Shown here in pieces: positions 1,531 through 29,103 of a stretch of 34,588 nt of DNA; position 1 is the stretch's first letter; the number at the start of each line of letters is the position of its first letter. The stretch lies in UHGV virus genome UHGV-0091505. One strand, 5' to 3'. The translations under genes were made by a program, and so were the position numbers. Below the pieces are notes generated by a model. It saw nothing but the letters and a program-made list of their open reading frames with translations. It did no database searches and was not told where the DNA came from. Origin of the DNA: a virus.

Positions 1531-1545
1531 TTACCTTTCAGGTGA
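1531..1545. promoter_or_regulatory. operator-like site TTACCTTTCAGGTGA (variant of the prophage operator motif)
   Basis: TTACC-N5-GGTGA; same variant class as a site in the cI/cro intergenic region; lies 40 bp upstream of the LexA box. Confidence 0.35.
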
Positions 1546-1582: not shown

Positions 1583-1602
1583 TACTGTATAAATATACAG
1601 TT
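1583..1602 (+). promoter_or_regulatory. LexA (SOS) box TACTGTATAAATATACAGTT
   Basis: CTGT-N8-ACAG with AT-only spacer at 1585-1600, flanked TA..TT; about 20 nt upstream of SD GGAGAAG and ATG at 1622. Confidence 0.7.
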
Positions 1603-1621: not shown

Positions 1622-1879
1622 ATGCAGCAGTATCACTATCCACTGGAAGACGGATTTACCGAAAGGATTCACACGCCGGGAGGCGTCAGGTCACTGGTGG
1701 AGGGATCGCACTTGATGAAATTACTCCGGGATCTCGATAAGGATGGATTTAATGTCGATGGCCCACTTGCCGAACTGACTGCACTGATTAACTACGTCAC
1801 CAGCTCACAGATGTCTATGCATGATCTGCAAACACATCTCGACTATTGTGCCGAACAATTACGAAAACAAACCAGATAA
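1622..1879 (+). CDS. small SOS-controlled antirepressor-like protein (standalone paralog of the C-terminal domain of the downstream Bro-N antirepressor)
   Basis: ATG at 1622 preceded by GGAGAAG; the track start at 1514 would place the LexA box inside the ORF; translated product aligns with the last ~75 aa of the 2192-2878 protein (PGGVRSLVEGSHLMKLL..LAELTALINYV..DLQTHLDY versus PSGVLGLTENSLLMNLL..AAELTTMFCYI..DIQTHAEY). Confidence 0.55.
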   Translation: MQQYHYPLEDGFTERIHTPGGVRSLVEGSHLMKLLRDLDKDGFNVDGPLAELTALINYVTSSQMSMHDLQTHLDYCAEQLRKQTR

Positions 1880-1882
1880 GGT

Positions 1883-1925
1883 TTGCAATTACCAAGTGGA
1901 GTACTTATATTTACCTTTGCGGTAA
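1883..1925 (+). promoter_or_regulatory. sigma70-type promoter (TTGCAA-17 nt-TATATT) with operator palindrome TTACCTTTGCGGTAA abutting the -10
   Basis: -35 at 1883-1888, -10 at 1906-1911, perfect TTACC-N5-GGTAA at 1911-1925; same -10/operator juxtaposition as at the pL-like promoter. Confidence 0.45.
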
Positions 1926-2019
1926 ATTTACATCGCACTCCTCTTGTGCCATAGTAATCTGGCACTGGCAAAATCCAGTGCCGGGATTGGCGTCCTTGGT
2001 TACTACAGAGGCACATATG

Positions 2020-2036
2020 CCGCATAAGCGGTTTTT
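2020..2036 (+). terminator. weak intrinsic terminator-like hairpin (CCGC-ATAA-GCGG followed by 7 T)
   Basis: Short GC stem plus T-run in the leader between the small antirepressor paralog and the Bro-N gene; stem is only 4-5 bp. Confidence 0.3.
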
Positions 2037-2191
2037 TTATGTGTAAAGCGCACCTATTCTATGGTGGGCTGTGTGGGGGCACCGAAAGGTGCGCCGGGTC
2101 CTTTGTAGCCGGTTACGCCAACCCTGCACAGTTCACCACCAACCGATTGGCGTCGGTAGTGGTGATTAACCTAACTACAAAGGTGATCACT

Positions 2192-2878
2192 ATGACTGCT
2201 AACGTAACCCCATCTGTTTTTCATTTTGAATCAGAAGCAACCATTCGAGCCATTGTTATTGATGGAAATCCCTGGTTTGTTGCCAAAGACGTTATTAAAG
2301 CTCTTCAACTGACAAACCCGACTATGTCAATAAAATCTCTTGATGATGATGAAAGGGCTAAATTTAACTTAGGCCGTCAAGGCGAAACCAATATTATCAA
2401 CGAGTCAGGCCTCTACACACTGATCCTCCGCTGCCGCGACGCAGTGACACCAGGCACTATCCCCTACCGCTTTCGTAAATGGGTTACAGGTGAGGTACTT
2501 CCTCAGATCCGCCGCACCGGAAGTTACATTAAAAACTCGCTCTCGCAGGAAGAACGGATAAAGATGGTTGCCGACCAGGTAGCCAACGCCACGGCGTCAG
2601 CAGTGATGCAGGCGATGAAGATAGAGAACAAAACCTACAACGCCCCACTGAAGCCCGGCTACCGCAGCCTGATACATTCTCCGTCTGGTGTTCTCGGCCT
2701 GACGGAGAACTCACTGCTGATGAATCTGCTGAACCAGTTACAGGAAGACGGGCACGATGTATCTGGCGCGGCAGCGGAGCTGACCACCATGTTCTGCTAC
2801 ATCGTCGGTGTGAGCAAATGCCTGCGTGATATCCAGACACACGCGGAGTACATCAACGACAAGGCTGGGTTCTTCTGA
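2192..2878 (+). CDS. phage antirepressor, Bro-N domain family (Ant-like)
   Basis: ATG at 2192 with SD AAAGGTGA; N-terminal region FHFESEATIRAIVIDGNPWFVAKDVIKALQL..ESGLYTLILRCRD is a Bro-N/antirepressor signature; C-terminal domain is paralogous to ORF 1622-1879. Confidence 0.8.
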   Translation: MTANVTPSVFHFESEATIRAIVIDGNPWFVAKDVIKALQLTNPTMSIKSLDDDERAKFNLGRQGETNIINESGLYTLILRCRDAVTPGTIPYRFRKWVTGEVLPQIRRTGSYIKNSLSQEERIKMVADQVANATASAVMQAMKIENKTYNAPLKPGYRSLIHSPSGVLGLTENSLLMNLLNQLQEDGHDVSGAAAELTTMFCYIVGVSKCLRDIQTHAEYINDKAGFF

Positions 2879-15135: not shown

Positions 15136-15186
15136 CTTCTTTCTCCATTAGTGGGTCTGTTACGACCCACAGGTTAATAACAGGCG

Positions 15187-19169: not shown

Positions 19170-19184
19170 TTACCTTTCAGGTAG
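19170..19184. promoter_or_regulatory. operator-like site TTACCTTTCAGGTAG
   Basis: TTACC-N5-GGTAG; 14/14 identical to the core of the site at 1531-1545; a TTGACA hexamer lies 16 nt upstream. Confidence 0.3.
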
Positions 19185-19506: not shown

Positions 19507-19583
19507 GTGGCATTAGCTCAGTTGGACAGAGCAACCGCCTTCTAAGCGGTTGGTCGCAGGTTCGAATCCTGCATGCCACGCCA
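19507..19583 (+). tRNA. tRNA-Arg (anticodon UCU), argU-like
   Basis: 77 nt cloverleaf folded by hand: acceptor GTGGCAT/ATGCCAC, D-arm GCTC/GAGC, anticodon stem ACCGC/GCGGT with loop CTTCTAA, T-arm GCAGG-TTCGAAT-CCTGC, discriminator G and encoded CCA. Confidence 0.85.
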
Positions 19584-19785: not shown

Positions 19786-20157
19786 ATGAGTGACAAAGAC
19801 ATTGAATCTGAAATTCAGGCTAAAGGTTTAGCCGCGCCGCGCGTTACGCCAGACCATATCGAGAGCATTATTGCTCAGGAGGCATATTTCACAGCAGAAG
19901 ATGGTGTCTTTGGCGTAGCCATAAAAGCGAAACATACTGGCGAAGAGGTAAACTACCAGCCGCACGAATCACTTTCTCTGCTGACGTTCTGCGTTCTGGT
20001 GCTGCGCAACGGCTTCACCGTCACCGGAGAGAGCGCCTGTGCAAGCCCGGAAAACTTTGATGCGGAAATTGGTCGGAAGATTGCCCGGCAGAATGCTGTA
20101 AACAAAATCTGGATGCTTGAAGGTTACTTGCTGAAGCAGAAGTTAAGCGAGCAATAA
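19786..20157 (+). CDS. Gp49-like phage protein (N4 gp49 / Sf6 gp66-type, function unknown)
   Basis: 123-aa ORF with SD AAGGTGAG; C-terminal pattern GESACASPENFDAEIGRKIARQNAVNKIWMLEGY recalled as this family; opposite strand to flanking terminase and portal. Confidence 0.5.
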   Translation: MSDKDIESEIQAKGLAAPRVTPDHIESIIAQEAYFTAEDGVFGVAIKAKHTGEEVNYQPHESLSLLTFCVLVLRNGFTVTGESACASPENFDAEIGRKIARQNAVNKIWMLEGYLLKQKLSEQ

Positions 20158-21723: not shown

Positions 21724-22316
21724 TGATTACCATCCTGACGTTCTTTGAGTCGCTTCCTGGCTGCCGCTATGCGATCAGCAATTGTCACATTCACATTAAC
21801 ATCCAAGCGTTCTTTGAATGCATTGACATCGACGTGCTTGCCAATCAGTTCGAGGTTCTTCACCTTGTCAGGCCATTTAATTTTTTTGAGGATTGTCTCT
21901 ATCGAATCCTCGTTCATGTTCATGATGGTCGATGACAGATCAAAGCCACTAAGCGTAGTGCGCCAGATTTTCGGCCACTCACGGATTGGTTTAAGGCTCC
22001 CATCGTCGTTGAGGATGTCGATCACGTCCATCTGGTCGATCTCCACCAGGCGCATGAGAACGTAATCAGCACTGACACGCATTCGTTTGTTGCGCTCCTC
22101 CATCAGCTCGGCAATCCGTTTCTGAATGCGTTCATCGCGCATCATGACACTGGCTTTAACTGCCGCTGTATTTGGGGAGAATCCTGCGTTAATCGCTGCC
22201 TGAGTCTGGTTTTCAGGCGTTTTGATGTATGACTGGCAATAAGCCTCCTGCATTGCTGTGAGCGGCTTAAATTGCGTTGATTTGCGTTTATAGGTTTTAG
22301 GTTCAGCAGGCATCAT
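21720..22316 (-). CDS. terminase small subunit
   Basis: Probable start at the ATG pair 22316/22313 (MMPAEPK..); the longer track ORF extends through an operator repeat translating to TITTTVTITTVV; DNA-binding type N-terminus. Confidence 0.8.
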   Translation of the reverse strand: MMPAEPKTYKRKSTQFKPLTAMQEAYCQSYIKTPENQTQAAINAGFSPNTAAVKASVMMRDERIQKRIAELMEERNKRMRVSADYVLMRLVEIDQMDVIDILNDDGSLKPIREWPKIWRTTLSGFDLSSTIMNMNEDSIETILKKIKWPDKVKNLELIGKHVDVNAFKERLDVNVNVTIADRIAAARKRLKERQDGNQ

Positions 22317-22333
22317 AACCACCGTGGTAATAG

Positions 22334-22348
22334 TTACCGTTGTGGTAA
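22334..22348. promoter_or_regulatory. operator palindrome TTACCGTTGTGGTAA upstream of terS
   Basis: Perfect TTACC-N5-GGTAA 18 nt upstream of the terS start; preceded on the minus strand by TACTAT (-10-like). Confidence 0.4.
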
Positions 22349-25921: not shown

Positions 25922-25998
25922 TTACCCCTGAGGTAATTAAAAACCACATAAGACACTAAATCAATAGAGTTTAGAATATTTTGTTACCCAACAGGTAA
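25922..25998 (-). promoter_or_regulatory. operator-flanked promoter (minus strand TTGATT-17 nt-TTTAAT) between the P-like gene and the nin-like block
   Basis: Two perfect palindromes TTACCCCTGAGGTAA (25922-25936) and TTACCCAACAGGTAA (25984-25998) bracket a -35/-10 pair (plus-strand 25959-25964 and 25936-25941); same architecture as the pL-like promoter. Confidence 0.45.
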
Positions 25999-27944: not shown

Positions 27945-27978
27945 GAATAGATATGAAAAGACCGCCGGATGACGGTCT
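27945..27978 (-). terminator. tR1-like hairpin terminator after cro
   Basis: Minus-strand AGACCG..CGGTCT stem followed by TTTCATATCTATT. Confidence 0.4.
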
Positions 27979-27999: not shown

Positions 28000-28230
28000 T
28001 CATGAGTAGAAGAAGTATGCCAGTTCTGCTTTTGAGCGCAGCCATTGTCTTGTTTTACAGGCTTTAAAAAGCCCATTCATCAATACCTTACCTGGCATTT
28101 TGCGCTTACCTGTTAAGTGAGTCTGGATATAGTGACTCGTCGTTCCGGCTTCCTGTGCGAAGGCTTCACGCTCATCCGGAGTAAGTGCAAGCCAGTGCTT
28201 TTTGAAATCGAAATGTCCGTTATCGCTCAT
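28000..28230 (-). CDS. Cro-like HTH regulator
   Basis: 76 aa, divergent from the repressor gene across an operator-rich region; HTH-like segment EAGTTSHYIQTHLTGKRKMP. Confidence 0.6.
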   Translation of the reverse strand: MSDNGHFDFKKHWLALTPDEREAFAQEAGTTSHYIQTHLTGKRKMPGKVLMNGLFKACKTRQWLRSKAELAYFFYS

Positions 28231-28266: not shown

Positions 28267-28329
28267 TCACCCATAAGGTAACAAAAATCAAGGATAGTTA
28301 CCTATGGGGTGCATTTACCTGTTGGGTAA
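28267..28329. promoter_or_regulatory. OR-like operator region (three sites) with divergent promoters
   Basis: TCACCCATAAGGTAA (28267-28281), TTACCTATGGGGTGC (28298-28312) and perfect TTACCTGTTGGGTAA (28315-28329) between cro-like and repressor genes. Confidence 0.5.
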
Positions 28330-28384: not shown

Positions 28385-28969
28385 ATGAAAAGTATCCAGG
28401 ACGTCCGCAGGCAAAATCTCAACGACTTGATCGACCGTGAATTCAATGGTGTTCAGACGCGGATGGCAGAAAAACTTGGAACTCAGGCAAATCTGGTAAA
28501 CCGCTGGGCTCTTGGCAAGAAGGTTATCGGCGACCAGGTTGCGCGAAAAATTGAAGCTGCCGCCAATAAACCCCGTAACTGGCTTGATATCGATCGCTCG
28601 CTTTCTCAGGAAGGTTTTCAGCCTGTCGGACCAAGCGACATTGGTCAACTGGCGGCTCACAACCTGGAACGCTGGATGAGCGAAAGCCGCGACCTTTCAA
28701 CACAGGGAAAACTTCACCGCGCATCCGGCGTCGCCCAGGTGACAATCAGCCGCCTGTTAAACAATGAGGTCAGCGTTTCCATTTCCACCCTGGAGAATGT
28801 TGCATCCGCATTCGGGCGTCACGGCTATGAATTACTGATTCACCCGCACGACCCTGCGACCATCAACTATGACCGCTCGCGCTACGCATTGTTACCCGAA
28901 ACCGAGAAAGCAAAGATCGAAAGTTACATTGAATTTGTCATCAACCAGAACGAAAAAAACAAACAATAA
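28385..28969 (+). CDS. prophage repressor, dual-HTH type without S24 peptidase domain
   Basis: 194 aa; two HTH-like segments (QTRMAEKLGTQANLVNRWALGKK and HRASGVAQVTISRLLNNE); no Ser-Lys autocleavage motif recognisable; divergent from cro, same strand as the early-left operon. Confidence 0.7.
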   Translation: MKSIQDVRRQNLNDLIDREFNGVQTRMAEKLGTQANLVNRWALGKKVIGDQVARKIEAAANKPRNWLDIDRSLSQEGFQPVGPSDIGQLAAHNLERWMSESRDLSTQGKLHRASGVAQVTISRLLNNEVSVSISTLENVASAFGRHGYELLIHPHDPATINYDRSRYALLPETEKAKIESYIEFVINQNEKNKQ

Positions 28970-29026: not shown

Positions 29027-29103
29027 TTACCTGTCGGGTAATTTTTTTAACTCATATCTATTGACATCAAACCAAATACGAATAATCATTACCTCAACGG
29101 TAA
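29027..29103 (+). promoter_or_regulatory. pL-like promoter (TTGACA-16 nt-TAATCA) flanked by two operator palindromes
   Basis: TTACCTGTCGGGTAA (29027-29041), -35 29061-29066, -10 29083-29088, TTACCTCAACGGTAA (29089-29103). Confidence 0.55.

What the first reader, a model, noticed from the sequence alone, without database searches (positions are those of the whole stretch)
28385..28969. Main repressor appears non-cleavable (dual HTH, no peptidase domain)
The 194-aa protein has two HTH-like segments and a C-terminus with no recognisable LexA/CI-type Ser-Lys autoproteolysis module. Combined with the LexA box at 1585-1600 this supports antirepressor-mediated rather than RecA-mediated induction.
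Basis: partly seen in the sequence, partly recalled or inferred. Interest (0 to 1): 0.55.

Follow-up and report, generated by a model that had tools for sequence, protein, structure and literature searches.

The report
Known non-cleavable phage repressor with antirepressor

Summary

- **The gene.** ORF 28385-28969 (+, 194 aa) is real. It is 100% identical to phiV10 gp40 and to the tested vB_EcoP_ZX5 ORF21 repressor. It aligns end to end (42% identity, E=4e-42) with the Salmonella phage SPC32H repressor Rep, solved in PDB 5D50/5D4Z.
- **Domains.** It has two HTH-like segments and a 45-residue C-terminal tail. There is no Peptidase_S24 match even at E<=10 (LexA control: 1.1e-36), no Ala-Gly or Cys-Gly, and no cysteine.
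- **The partner.** ORF 1622-1879 is 87% identical to SPC32H Ant (PDB 5D50_E). A near-consensus LexA box (1583-1602) precedes it and is conserved in seven phages from four host genera.
- **Published mechanism.** The SPC32H work shows that Ant, made when LexA is inactivated, disassembles Rep tetramers.

Two corrections apply. The second HTH-like domain is a dimerisation domain in the solved homologue. Induction also still depends on RecA, through LexA.

Additions from this work:
- Rep-operator-like TTACC-N5-GGTAA palindromes flank rep and sit upstream of ant.
- The Bro-N protein carries a second Ant-like domain, behind an isrK/C4 RNA leader.
- This immunity region occurs in about 10% of complete E. 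coli genomes.

The parts
28385..28969 (+). rep: 194-aa non-cleavable prophage repressor. By alignment to SPC32H Rep, roughly: N-terminal HTH DNA-binding domain aa 1-70, linker 71-88, middle HTH-like dimerisation domain aa 89-150, C-terminal tetramerisation/Ant-binding domain aa 151-190.
   Evidence: domain roles from PMC9986798
28990..29009 (+). terminator-like hairpin plus T-run just after rep, which makes rep a separate transcription unit
   Evidence: the same position is annotated as a terminator in phiV10
28267..28329 (.). rep/cro intergenic operator cluster (OR-like). TTACC-N5-GGTAA palindromes at 28267-28281 (1 mismatch), 28298-28312 (2 mismatches) and 28315-28329 (perfect). They overlap a minus-strand promoter-like site (28284-28256) that points at the cro-like gene.
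   Evidence: three equivalent sites in SPC32H and epsilon15
29027..29103 (.). operator pair downstream of rep (OL-like): perfect palindromes at 29027-29041 and 29089-29103. They bracket a strong promoter-like site (TTGACA-17-AATCAT, 29061-29089, + strand) that points into the recombination/excision operon.
   Evidence: equivalent sites are annotated 'repressor binding; lysogeny' in epsilon15
28000..28230 (-). cro-like small regulator (76 aa), transcribed divergently from rep
   Evidence: phrog_35 transcriptional repressor, E=5.6e-13; synteny with phiV10 p41 and epsilon15 gp39
1622..1879 (+). ant: 85-aa antirepressor, 87% identical to SPC32H Ant
   Evidence: (PDB 5D50_E, E=2e-46)
1583..1602 (.). 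LexA (SOS) box TACTGTATAAATATACAGTT, in front of ant. It overlaps a putative -10 (TACTGT) that lies 17 nt after a conserved TGGATA.
   Evidence: The promoter assignment is my inference from the conserved spacing.
1531..1545 (.). Rep-operator-like palindrome TTACCTTTCAGGTGA upstream of the ant promoter
   Evidence: conserved in all seven phages; the homologous epsilon15 site 19895-19911 is annotated as repressor binding
1911..1925 (.). perfect Rep-operator-like palindrome TTACCTTTGCGGTAA between two promoter-like sites at the start of the isrK/C4 leader
1962..2038 (+). isrK-type Hfq-binding sRNA element ending in a terminator hairpin
   Evidence: Rfam RF01394, 63.8 bits (gathering 50); terminator-like site 2019-2032
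2057..2143 (+). C4-type antisense RNA element (P1/P7 immI type)
   Evidence: Rfam RF01695, 79.5 bits (gathering 45)
2192..2878 (+). second antirepressor candidate (228 aa from the ATG at 2192): Bro-N domain fused to a C-terminal Ant-like domain (aa ~145-226)
   Evidence: Pfam Bro-N 7.2e-20; tblastn Ant versus window, 40% identity over 78 aa, E=9e-14; phrog_450 E=4e-36; 81% identical to ZX5 ORF4 'anti-repressor'
25922..25998 (.). two further perfect TTACC-N5-GGTAA palindromes (25922-25936 and 25984-25998) after the replication genes
   Evidence: equivalent pair in epsilon15 (35907, 35969) and SPC32H (35972, 36034)
22316..22348 (.). two palindromes (22316-22330 with 1 mismatch, 22334-22348 perfect) at the head of the terminase/late operon
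   Evidence: equivalent to epsilon15 sites 12-27 and 30-44, upstream of the small terminase subunit

Best explanation
ORF 28385-28969 is the lysogeny repressor (Rep) of a phiV10/epsilon15-type (Uetakevirus) prophage. Its N-terminal HTH domain most likely binds TTACC-N5-GGTAA operators. These flank rep on both sides and also occur in front of ant, in front of the Bro-N gene, at the head of the late operon and in the region after the replication genes. Binding is as a tetramer, held together by the middle HTH-like dimerisation domain and the short C-terminal tetramerisation domain. Rep has no S24 self-cleavage module and is not itself the target of RecA. Host LexA instead holds the ant promoter shut through the SOS box at 1583-1602. 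DNA damage makes LexA cleave itself with RecA's help, and the 85-aa Ant is then made. Ant binds the Rep C-terminal domain, breaks the tetramer into dimers and releases Rep from DNA, which starts lytic growth. Shown here: the homology of both proteins to the solved complex, the absence of S24, the LexA box and its conservation, and the operator distribution. Shown by others on relatives: that Rep represses, that the phage is induced by mitomycin C, and that Ant binds Rep and disassembles the tetramer. Inferred for this phage: that Rep is not cleaved, that this Ant binds this Rep, and that the palindromes are the Rep operators.
For: Identity: the protein is 100% identical to phiV10 gp40, ZX5 ORF21 and 11 other phage records. 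Overexpression of ZX5 ORF21 abolished free phage and cut lysis-gene transcripts by >99.9% (PMC9782041). Homology to the solved system: Rep matches 5D50_A at E=4e-42 over aa 1-190, and Ant matches 5D50_E at E=2e-46; BLASTP gives 42% and 87% identity. No cleavage module: S24 is absent at E<=10 with a LexA positive control at 1.1e-36; there is no AG/CG dipeptide and no cysteine. No S24 or ImmA-type peptidase appears in the phiV10 annotation or in the window ORFs that were scanned. The C-terminal domain keeps an invariant I-x-YD-x3-Y-x2-LP-x2-EK-x-KI-x5-F-x3-QN pattern across six Reps. Wiring: the LexA box, a conserved TGGATA and an upstream Rep-type palindrome are conserved in seven phages from four host genera. 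Rep and Ant co-occur in 35 of the 37 phage records that carry Rep. The synteny matches SPC32H, with ant between the tailspike and virion genes and rep divergent from a cro-like gene. Operators: TTACC-N5-GGTAA occurs 11 times against 0.49 expected here and 18 times against 0.65 expected in SPC32H. The same sites are annotated as repressor-binding in epsilon15. Physiology: ZX5, with the identical Rep, rises from 1e7 to 1e9 PFU/ml with mitomycin C. A repressor with no S24 module therefore needs an indirect SOS route. Mechanism in the relative: PMC7380047, PMC9638917, PMC9986798.
Against: No experiment on this exact Rep has tested cleavage or Ant binding. Its Ant-binding domain is only 48% identical to that of SPC32H, and the middle domain only 34%. 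The one experimental paper on an identical Rep attributes antirepression to the Bro-N protein and never mentions LexA or the small Ant. The primary SPC32H papers (Kim & Ryu 2013; Kim et al. 2016) were not readable here. Their content therefore rests on secondary citations and on my recollection of the abstracts. The role of the Rep-type site upstream of ant is unknown. My single-sequence structure model was too poor to add anything.
Confidence: 0.9

Rival explanations
1. The SOS-independent Bro-N::Ant fusion (2192-2878), controlled by the isrK/C4 RNA leader and a Rep operator, is the main or an equal inactivator of Rep. The small Ant would be secondary.
For: The fusion's C-terminal 80 residues are homologous to Ant (E=9e-14; phrog_450 at 4e-36). 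Overexpressing the 81%-identical ZX5 ORF4 lowered prophage counts about 1000-fold and repressor transcripts by 75%. ZX5 lysogens release 1e7 PFU/ml spontaneously.
Against: SPC32H, epsilon15 and BUCT554 lack this gene, yet they keep Rep, Ant and the LexA box. In phiV10 the fusion is split by a frameshift inside the Ant-like domain. It has no LexA box of its own, so it cannot explain mitomycin induction directly. The overexpression result does not show binding to Rep.
Confidence: 0.12
2. Rep is inactivated by proteolysis after all. This would be RecA-stimulated self-cleavage at a cryptic site, or cleavage by a dedicated ImmA/IrrE-type metalloprotease or a host protease.
For: Some XRE-type repressors without S24, such as ImmR and DdrO, are cut by partner metalloproteases (established knowledge; DdrO/IrrE in PMC6868357, listed).
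Against: There is no S24 domain and no AG/CG site. No M78/ImmA-like or S24 gene appears in the phiV10 annotation or in the 25 window ORFs scanned; the only protease is the head-maturation one. In the solved homologue, inactivation is described as reversible disassembly by Ant.
Confidence: 0.03
3. The 194-aa protein is not the master repressor. It would be an accessory regulator, with immunity set by another gene such as the 76-aa cro-like protein.
For: NCBI pipelines name it only 'helix-turn-helix domain-containing protein', and one record calls it a VapI antidote. No NCBIfam model names it.
Against: Overexpression of the identical protein blocks lytic growth. The orthologue in SPC32H is the characterised repressor. 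The gene sits between two operator clusters in a lambda-like layout.
Confidence: 0.03

Closest known systems
Salmonella phage SPC32H Rep/Ant/LexA switch (Kim & Ryu 2013, J Virol; Kim et al. 2016, PNAS; PDB 5D4Z, 5D50)
   Same: Same genus (Uetakevirus) and same gene order. Rep aligns over its full length, with the same arrangement of N-terminal DNA-binding domain, middle dimerisation domain and C-terminal tetramerisation/Ant-binding domain. Ant is 87% identical. The LexA box sits at the same place in front of ant, and the operator half-sites are the same TTACC/GGTAA.
   Different: Rep is only 42% identical (NDD 54%, MDD 34%, CAD 48%). Operator spacers are G+C-containing here and almost pure A/T in SPC32H. 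This phage adds a Bro-N::Ant fusion with an isrK/C4 leader, which SPC32H lacks.
phiV10 gp40 / vB_EcoP_ZX5 ORF21 repressor (PMC9782041)
   Same: The protein is 100% identical. The phiV10 record already notes 'two helix-turn-helix motifs' and similarity to the epsilon15 repressor. Repressor activity was shown by overexpression, and the phage is induced by mitomycin C.
   Different: Nothing differs in the protein. In those records the small Ant is annotated 'hypothetical protein', and the ZX5 paper does not mention LexA or the small Ant.
epsilon15 gp38 repressor and its annotated binding sites
   Same: It is 42% identical over the full length. The RefSeq record cites HHpred 5d50_A for it and marks ATTACC-N5-GGTAAT sites as repressor binding, at positions equivalent to those in the window.
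   Different: The host is Salmonella, the operator spacers are A/T-rich, and there is no Bro-N::Ant gene.
Coliphage 186 CI/Tum and Gifsy/Fels-2 LexA-controlled antirepressors
   Same: The logic is the same: a repressor that RecA does not cleave, and a small antirepressor whose promoter is shut by LexA (PMC7380047).
   Different: Ant matched no Pfam or NCBIfam family at the thresholds used and hit only phrog_450, phrog_15539 and phrog_1760. No direct comparison with a Tum sequence was made. Phage type and repressor fold also differ. This is an analogue, not a family member.
Lambda CI / LexA S24 self-cleaving repressors
   Same: The immunity-region layout is lambda-like: rep between two operator clusters, a divergent cro-like gene, and SOS-dependent induction.
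   Different: There is no S24 domain, no Ala-Gly site and no Ser/Lys dyad context. Oligomerisation uses a short beta-strand/helix tetramerisation domain that has been compared with p53's (PMC9986798).
P1/P7 immI (c4-icd-ant) and Gifsy-1 isrK-orf45-anrP
   Same: The leader of the Bro-N::Ant gene matches the Rfam C4 and isrK models above their gathering scores and is followed by an antirepressor-like gene. This is the arrangement of the Gifsy-1 locus.
   Different: The antirepressor's C-terminal domain here is of the SPC32H Ant type. The small upstream ORF runs in frame into the Bro-N gene in this window. No function has been tested.

Membership tests
SPC32H-type non-cleavable Rep | Full-length sequence homology to SPC32H Rep (PDB 5D50_A) | tested here: met
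   phmmer E=4e-42 over aa 1-190 of 194; BLASTP 42% identity, E=2e-53
SPC32H-type non-cleavable Rep | Three-part architecture: N-terminal HTH DNA-binding domain, middle HTH-like dimerisation domain, short C-terminal tetramerisation/Ant-binding domain | tested here: met
   Met at the sequence level only. There are two HTH hits, a gap-free alignment through the middle and C-terminal domains, and invariant C-terminal residues in six homologues. Domain roles are taken from PMC9986798. My own structure model was unusable (pLDDT 45).
SPC32H-type non-cleavable Rep | Cognate small Ant gene in the same phage | tested here: met
   ORF 1622-1879 is 87% identical to SPC32H Ant and matches 5D50_E at E=2e-46. 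The position between tail fibre and virion genes is the same.
SPC32H-type non-cleavable Rep | LexA box overlapping the ant promoter | tested here: met
   The box is at 1583-1602 and is conserved in seven phages. LexA binding itself cannot be tested here.
SPC32H-type non-cleavable Rep | Rep stays intact during SOS; Ant binds Rep and releases it from DNA | not testable with these tools
   This needs a Western blot, pull-down or EMSA. It is reported for SPC32H.
LexA/CI-type self-cleaving repressor (Peptidase S24) | S24 catalytic domain with Ser/Lys dyad | tested here: not met
   No hit at E<=10, while the LexA control scored 1.1e-36 in the same scan. Only about 45 residues follow the second HTH.
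LexA/CI-type self-cleaving repressor (Peptidase S24) | Ala-Gly or Cys-Gly cleavage site in the linker | tested here: not met
   Neither dipeptide occurs in the protein.
ImmR/ImmA-type (XRE repressor cut by a partner M78 metalloprotease) | Metalloprotease gene next to or near the repressor gene | tested here: not met
   The neighbours are a cro-like gene and small ORFs of unknown function. No such family appears in the ORFs scanned or in the phiV10 annotation.
186 Tum / Gifsy antirepressor family | Sequence homology of the antirepressor to Tum | not tested
   No Tum sequence was compared directly. Ant hit only phrog_450, phrog_15539 and phrog_1760 and no Pfam or NCBIfam family. The resemblance is one of circuit logic.
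P1 immI / Gifsy-1 isrK-type RNA-controlled antirepressor locus | C4 and isrK RNA elements upstream of an antirepressor gene | tested here: met
   C4 scores 79.5 bits (gathering 45) and isrK 63.8 bits (gathering 50), directly upstream of the Bro-N::Ant gene.

The most novel reading that the evidence does not exclude
This phage, like most E. coli members of the group, may run a two-input antirepression circuit on one non-cleavable repressor. The first input is the LexA-gated small Ant. The second is a Bro-N protein whose C-terminal domain is a diverged copy of Ant (40% identical). That gene is gated by a Rep operator and an isrK/C4 antisense-RNA leader of the P1 immI / Gifsy-1 type. If both dock on the same Rep C-terminal domain, the second input would allow SOS-independent or superinfection-triggered induction. 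Ant is far more conserved than Rep (87% versus 42%), which would further suggest cross-induction between heteroimmune relatives, as in Gifsy phages.
Probability: 0.35. Interest if true: 0.4.

Novelty: already known. Interest (0 to 1): 0.15.

Why it matters
The finding itself adds little, because the switch is published and solved structurally in a phage of the same genus. Its practical value lies in annotation. This immunity region occurs in 539 of 5426 complete E. coli genomes. There the repressor is named only 'helix-turn-helix domain-containing protein' and the antirepressor 'hypothetical protein'. No NCBIfam model names either protein. The one experimental paper on the identical repressor overlooked the LexA-controlled Ant. 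Recognising the SPC32H-type wiring tells anyone engineering phiV10-type reporter or therapeutic phages which genes to delete to lock or unlock lysogeny.

Tried and rejected
- **Structure prediction.** A single-sequence run gave pLDDT 45 and pTM 0.22. I discarded it and ran no fold search, since the solved homologue makes one unnecessary.
- **Primary papers.** Kim & Ryu 2013, Kim et al. 2016 and Kropinski et al. 2007 are not held in the library. I used secondary citations instead.
- **Large protein-database searches.** I skipped them deliberately. The phage, PDB and E. coli collections already answered the question.
- **Other CTGT-N8-ACAG matches.** The sites at 15157 and 19699 have G+C-containing spacers (GC-rich at 15157) and lie away from any regulatory gene. 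With 0.71 matches expected by chance, I treat them as chance.
- **Longer ant ORF.** The 121-aa ORF from 1514 would contain the LexA box and the operator. I rejected it in favour of 1622, because the homologues and the crystallised protein start there and the upstream DNA is conserved as regulatory motifs.
- **Start of the Bro-N gene.** The mechanical ORF starts at 2039, inside the RNA leader. The ATG at 2192 has a ribosome-binding site and matches the ZX5 and phiV10 starts.
- **NCBIfam.** It gave only sub-threshold hits.

Full report
**What the window is.** The 2 kb around the finding is 97-98% identical to Escherichia phage phiV10, vB_EcoP_PAS61, the O157 typing phages 9 and 10, phiv142-3, vB_EcoP_ZX5 and others, all in the genus Uetakevirus (epsilon15-like podophages). 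The window runs from the tail-fibre gene through the virion, terminase, replication and immunity genes to the integrase. It therefore covers most of one prophage of this type.

**Checking the observation.**
- Pfam gives HTH_3 (E=1.2e-9, two stretches, best at aa 106-147) and a weaker Cro/YdaS-type HTH at aa 21-61.
- PHROG repressor families cover the N-terminal 76 residues and residues 92-152 separately. 'Two HTH-like segments' is therefore correct.
- No Peptidase_S24 match appears even at E<=10, for the whole protein or for its last 59 residues. E. coli LexA, placed in the same scan as a positive control, scores 1.1e-36.
- Only about 45 residues follow the second HTH, against an S24 profile of 116 positions.
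- The protein contains no Ala-Gly or Cys-Gly dipeptide and no cysteine.
- The LexA box is real. CTGTATAAATATACAG lies at 1585-1600, within TACTGTATAAATATACAGTT, and ends about 20 nt before the ATG at 1622.

**What the protein is.**
- It is 100% identical to phiV10 gp40, ZX5 ORF21 and the equivalent protein in 11 more phage records.
- It is 75-78% identical to the Enterobacter phage proteins (Tyrion, BUCT554) and about 42-45% identical to those of Klebsiella phages, epsilon15, SPN1S and SPC32H.
- Against the PDB it matches SPC32H 'Repressor' 5D50_A at E=4e-42 over aa 1-190, and the C-terminal fragment 5D4Z_A at E=4e-20.
- The phiV10 record already notes 'two helix-turn-helix motifs ... similar to putative repressor epsilon15p38'. 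The epsilon15 record cites HHpred 5d50_A for its copy.
- According to PMC9986798, SPC32H Rep has three parts: an N-terminal DNA-binding domain, a middle dimerisation domain (MDD), and a C-terminal domain (CAD or 'TetDloop'). The C-terminal domain both tetramerises Rep and binds the antirepressor.
- Identity to SPC32H Rep by domain is 54% (N-terminal), 17% (linker), 34% (middle) and 48% (C-terminal).
- Across six homologues the recognition-helix stretch NLVNRW is invariant. So is a C-terminal pattern, I-x-YD-x3-Y-x2-LP-x2-EK-x-KI-x5-F-x3-QN.

**The partner.**
- ORF 1622-1879 (85 aa) is 87% identical to SPC32H Ant and matches chain 5D50_E, 'Anti-repressor protein', at E=2e-46.
- It lies between the tail-fibre gene and the last virion gene, as in SPC32H.
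- Ant homologues are present in 35 phage records, essentially the same set that carries Rep. In most of them Ant is annotated only as 'hypothetical protein'.
- I aligned the 130 nt upstream of ant from the window, phiV10, Tyrion, BUCT554, Klebsiella phage BUCT711, epsilon15 and SPC32H. Three blocks are conserved: an ATTACC-N5-GGTRA palindrome, a TGGATA hexamer, and the LexA box 17 nt after that hexamer. A GGAG ribosome-binding site and the ATG follow.
- I read TGGATA-17-TACTGT as the ant promoter, with the LexA box over its -10. This is an inference.

**Published mechanism in the relative.**
- PMC9638917 summarises that Rep binds DNA as a tetramer and the dimer binds only weakly. The paired DNA-binding domains are proposed to come from different dimers of the tetramer. 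[quoted passage not shown]
- From my own memory of the Kim & Ryu abstract, which I could not read here, SPC32H Rep is not cleaved during SOS. A single base change in the LexA box gives constitutive Ant in the sibling phage SPC32N.
- For the identical E. coli Rep, PMC9782041 shows that overexpression abolishes free phage and reduces endolysin and holin transcripts by more than 99.9%. It also shows that mitomycin C raises the titre from 1e7 to 1e9 PFU/ml.
- A repressor without a cleavage module in an SOS-inducible phage needs exactly the indirect route that the conserved LexA-gated ant provides.

**Operators.**
- TTACC-N5-GGTAA (up to one mismatch) occurs 11 times in the window against 0.49 expected; none of 100 shuffles reached 11.
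- In SPC32H it occurs 18 times against 0.65 expected.
- The sites sit where operators should be:

| Location | Sites (window coordinates) | Notes |
|---|---|---|
| rep/cro intergenic region | 28267, 28298 (two mismatches), 28315 | overlap a minus-strand promoter-like site |
| just downstream of the rep terminator | 29027, 29089 | bracket a TTGACA-17-AATCAT promoter-like site |
| upstream of ant | 1531 | conserved in all seven phages |
| head of the Bro-N leader | 1911 | between two promoter-like sites |
| after the replication genes | 25922, 25984 | equivalent pairs in epsilon15 and SPC32H |
| head of the terminase operon | 22316, 22334 | equivalent to epsilon15 sites 12-27 and 30-44 |
| within the virion-gene region | 19170 | one mismatch; role not examined |

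- The epsilon15 RefSeq record marks the homologous ATTACC-N5-GGTAAT sites as 'repressor; lysogeny' binding sites. This too is already annotated in the family.
- The layout is lambda-like: OR, then rep, a terminator, and OL with a PL-like promoter.

**Other routes to inactivating Rep.** No S24 or ImmA/IrrE-type peptidase appears among the 25 window ORFs I scanned with Pfam. None appears in the full phiV10 annotation either, where the only protease is the head-maturation enzyme.

**The Bro-N gene.**
- A tblastn search with Ant against the window finds a second copy at 2630-2863: 40% identity over 78 aa, E=9e-14. This is the C-terminal third of the Bro-N protein.
- PHROG 450, the Ant family, matches aa 145-226 of that protein at E=4e-36.
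- The likely start is the ATG at 2192, which has a ribosome-binding site and gives a 228-aa protein.
- This protein is 81% identical to ZX5 ORF4, the 'anti-repressor'. Overexpressing ORF4 lowered prophage counts from 1e9 to 1e6.
- The leader of the gene matches two Rfam models above their gathering scores: isrK (1962-2038, 63.8 bits) and C4 antisense RNA (2057-2143, 79.5 bits). There is also a sub-threshold match to the C4 target family.
- This is the arrangement of the Gifsy-1 isrK-orf45-anrP locus (PMC4825925). From established knowledge, it is also that of P1 immI.
- SPC32H, epsilon15 and BUCT554 lack the gene. In phiV10 it is split by a frameshift inside the Ant-like domain. It is therefore an accessory module, not the core switch.

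**Prevalence.** The 892-bp immunity cassette (operators, rep, terminator, operators) is present at 95% identity or more in 539 of 5426 complete E. coli genomes. The best match is strain ML35 at 99.9%.

**Verdict.** Three corrections apply:
1. The second HTH-like segment is a dimerisation domain in the solved relative.
2. RecA is still needed, acting through LexA rather than on the repressor.
3. The Bro-N gene has its own RNA-based control and is not behind the LexA box.

The system is already known, from the identical protein in the literature and a solved orthologous complex. The only modestly new points are the Ant-like domain on the Bro-N protein, its isrK/C4 leader, and the contrast between G+C-containing operator spacers here and A/T-rich ones in the Salmonella phages.

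Noticed in passing
window 2192-2878 (Ant-like part 2630-2863): The Bro-N protein ends in a domain homologous to the small antirepressor Ant (40% identity over 78 aa, E=9e-14; phrog_450 at 4e-36). The prophage therefore encodes two Ant-domain proteins. The copy in phiV10 is split by a frameshift, and Salmonella relatives lack the gene.
   Followed up: partly
window 1949-2143: Rfam isrK sRNA (1962-2038) and C4 antisense RNA (2057-2143) lie in tandem in the leader of the Bro-N::Ant gene, as in Gifsy-1 isrK-orf45-anrP and P1 immI. A perfect Rep-type palindrome at 1911-1925 sits at the leader's promoter. In this window the small upstream ORF (from 2039) runs in frame into the Bro-N gene with no stop codon.
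   Followed up: partly
window operators versus L002 (SPC32H) and L005 (epsilon15): The Rep N-terminal domains are only 54% identical between the phiV10 type and the epsilon15/SPC32H type. Even so, the operator half-sites (TTACC/GGTAA) and the recognition-helix core NLVNRW are the same. What differs is the 5-bp spacer, which is G+C-containing here and almost pure A/T in the Salmonella phages, and the first residues of the helix (TQA versus RSQ). Whether the two types are heteroimmune is unclear.
   Followed up: no
window 1622-1879 versus 28385-28969: Ant is far more conserved than its target. Against SPC32H, Ant is 87% identical, whereas Rep is 42% identical overall and 48% in the Ant-binding domain. 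This hints at an extra constraint on Ant or at cross-induction between related prophages.
   Followed up: no
window 19507-19580: A tRNA gene (Rfam tRNA, 73.3 bits) lies between the terminase and portal regions. SPC32H carries a tRNA-Arg at the corresponding place.
   Followed up: no
window 22316-22348, 25922-25998, 19170-19184: Rep-type palindromes also precede the terminase operon and lie after the replication genes, with a further one-mismatch site at 19170 in the virion-gene region. This suggests that Rep directly represses several promoters across the genome and not only the immunity region. The equivalent sites are annotated in epsilon15.
   Followed up: partly
public annotation of relatives: No NCBIfam model names Rep or Ant. 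In hundreds of E. coli genomes they are labelled 'helix-turn-helix domain-containing protein' and 'hypothetical protein', and one phage record calls Rep a 'VapI antidote'. The ZX5 paper on the identical repressor does not mention LexA or the small Ant.
   Followed up: yes
window 27959-27978 (- strand): A terminator-like hairpin sits about 20 nt after the cro-like gene and ahead of the replication genes. The rightward early operon may therefore need read-through or antitermination.
   Followed up: no
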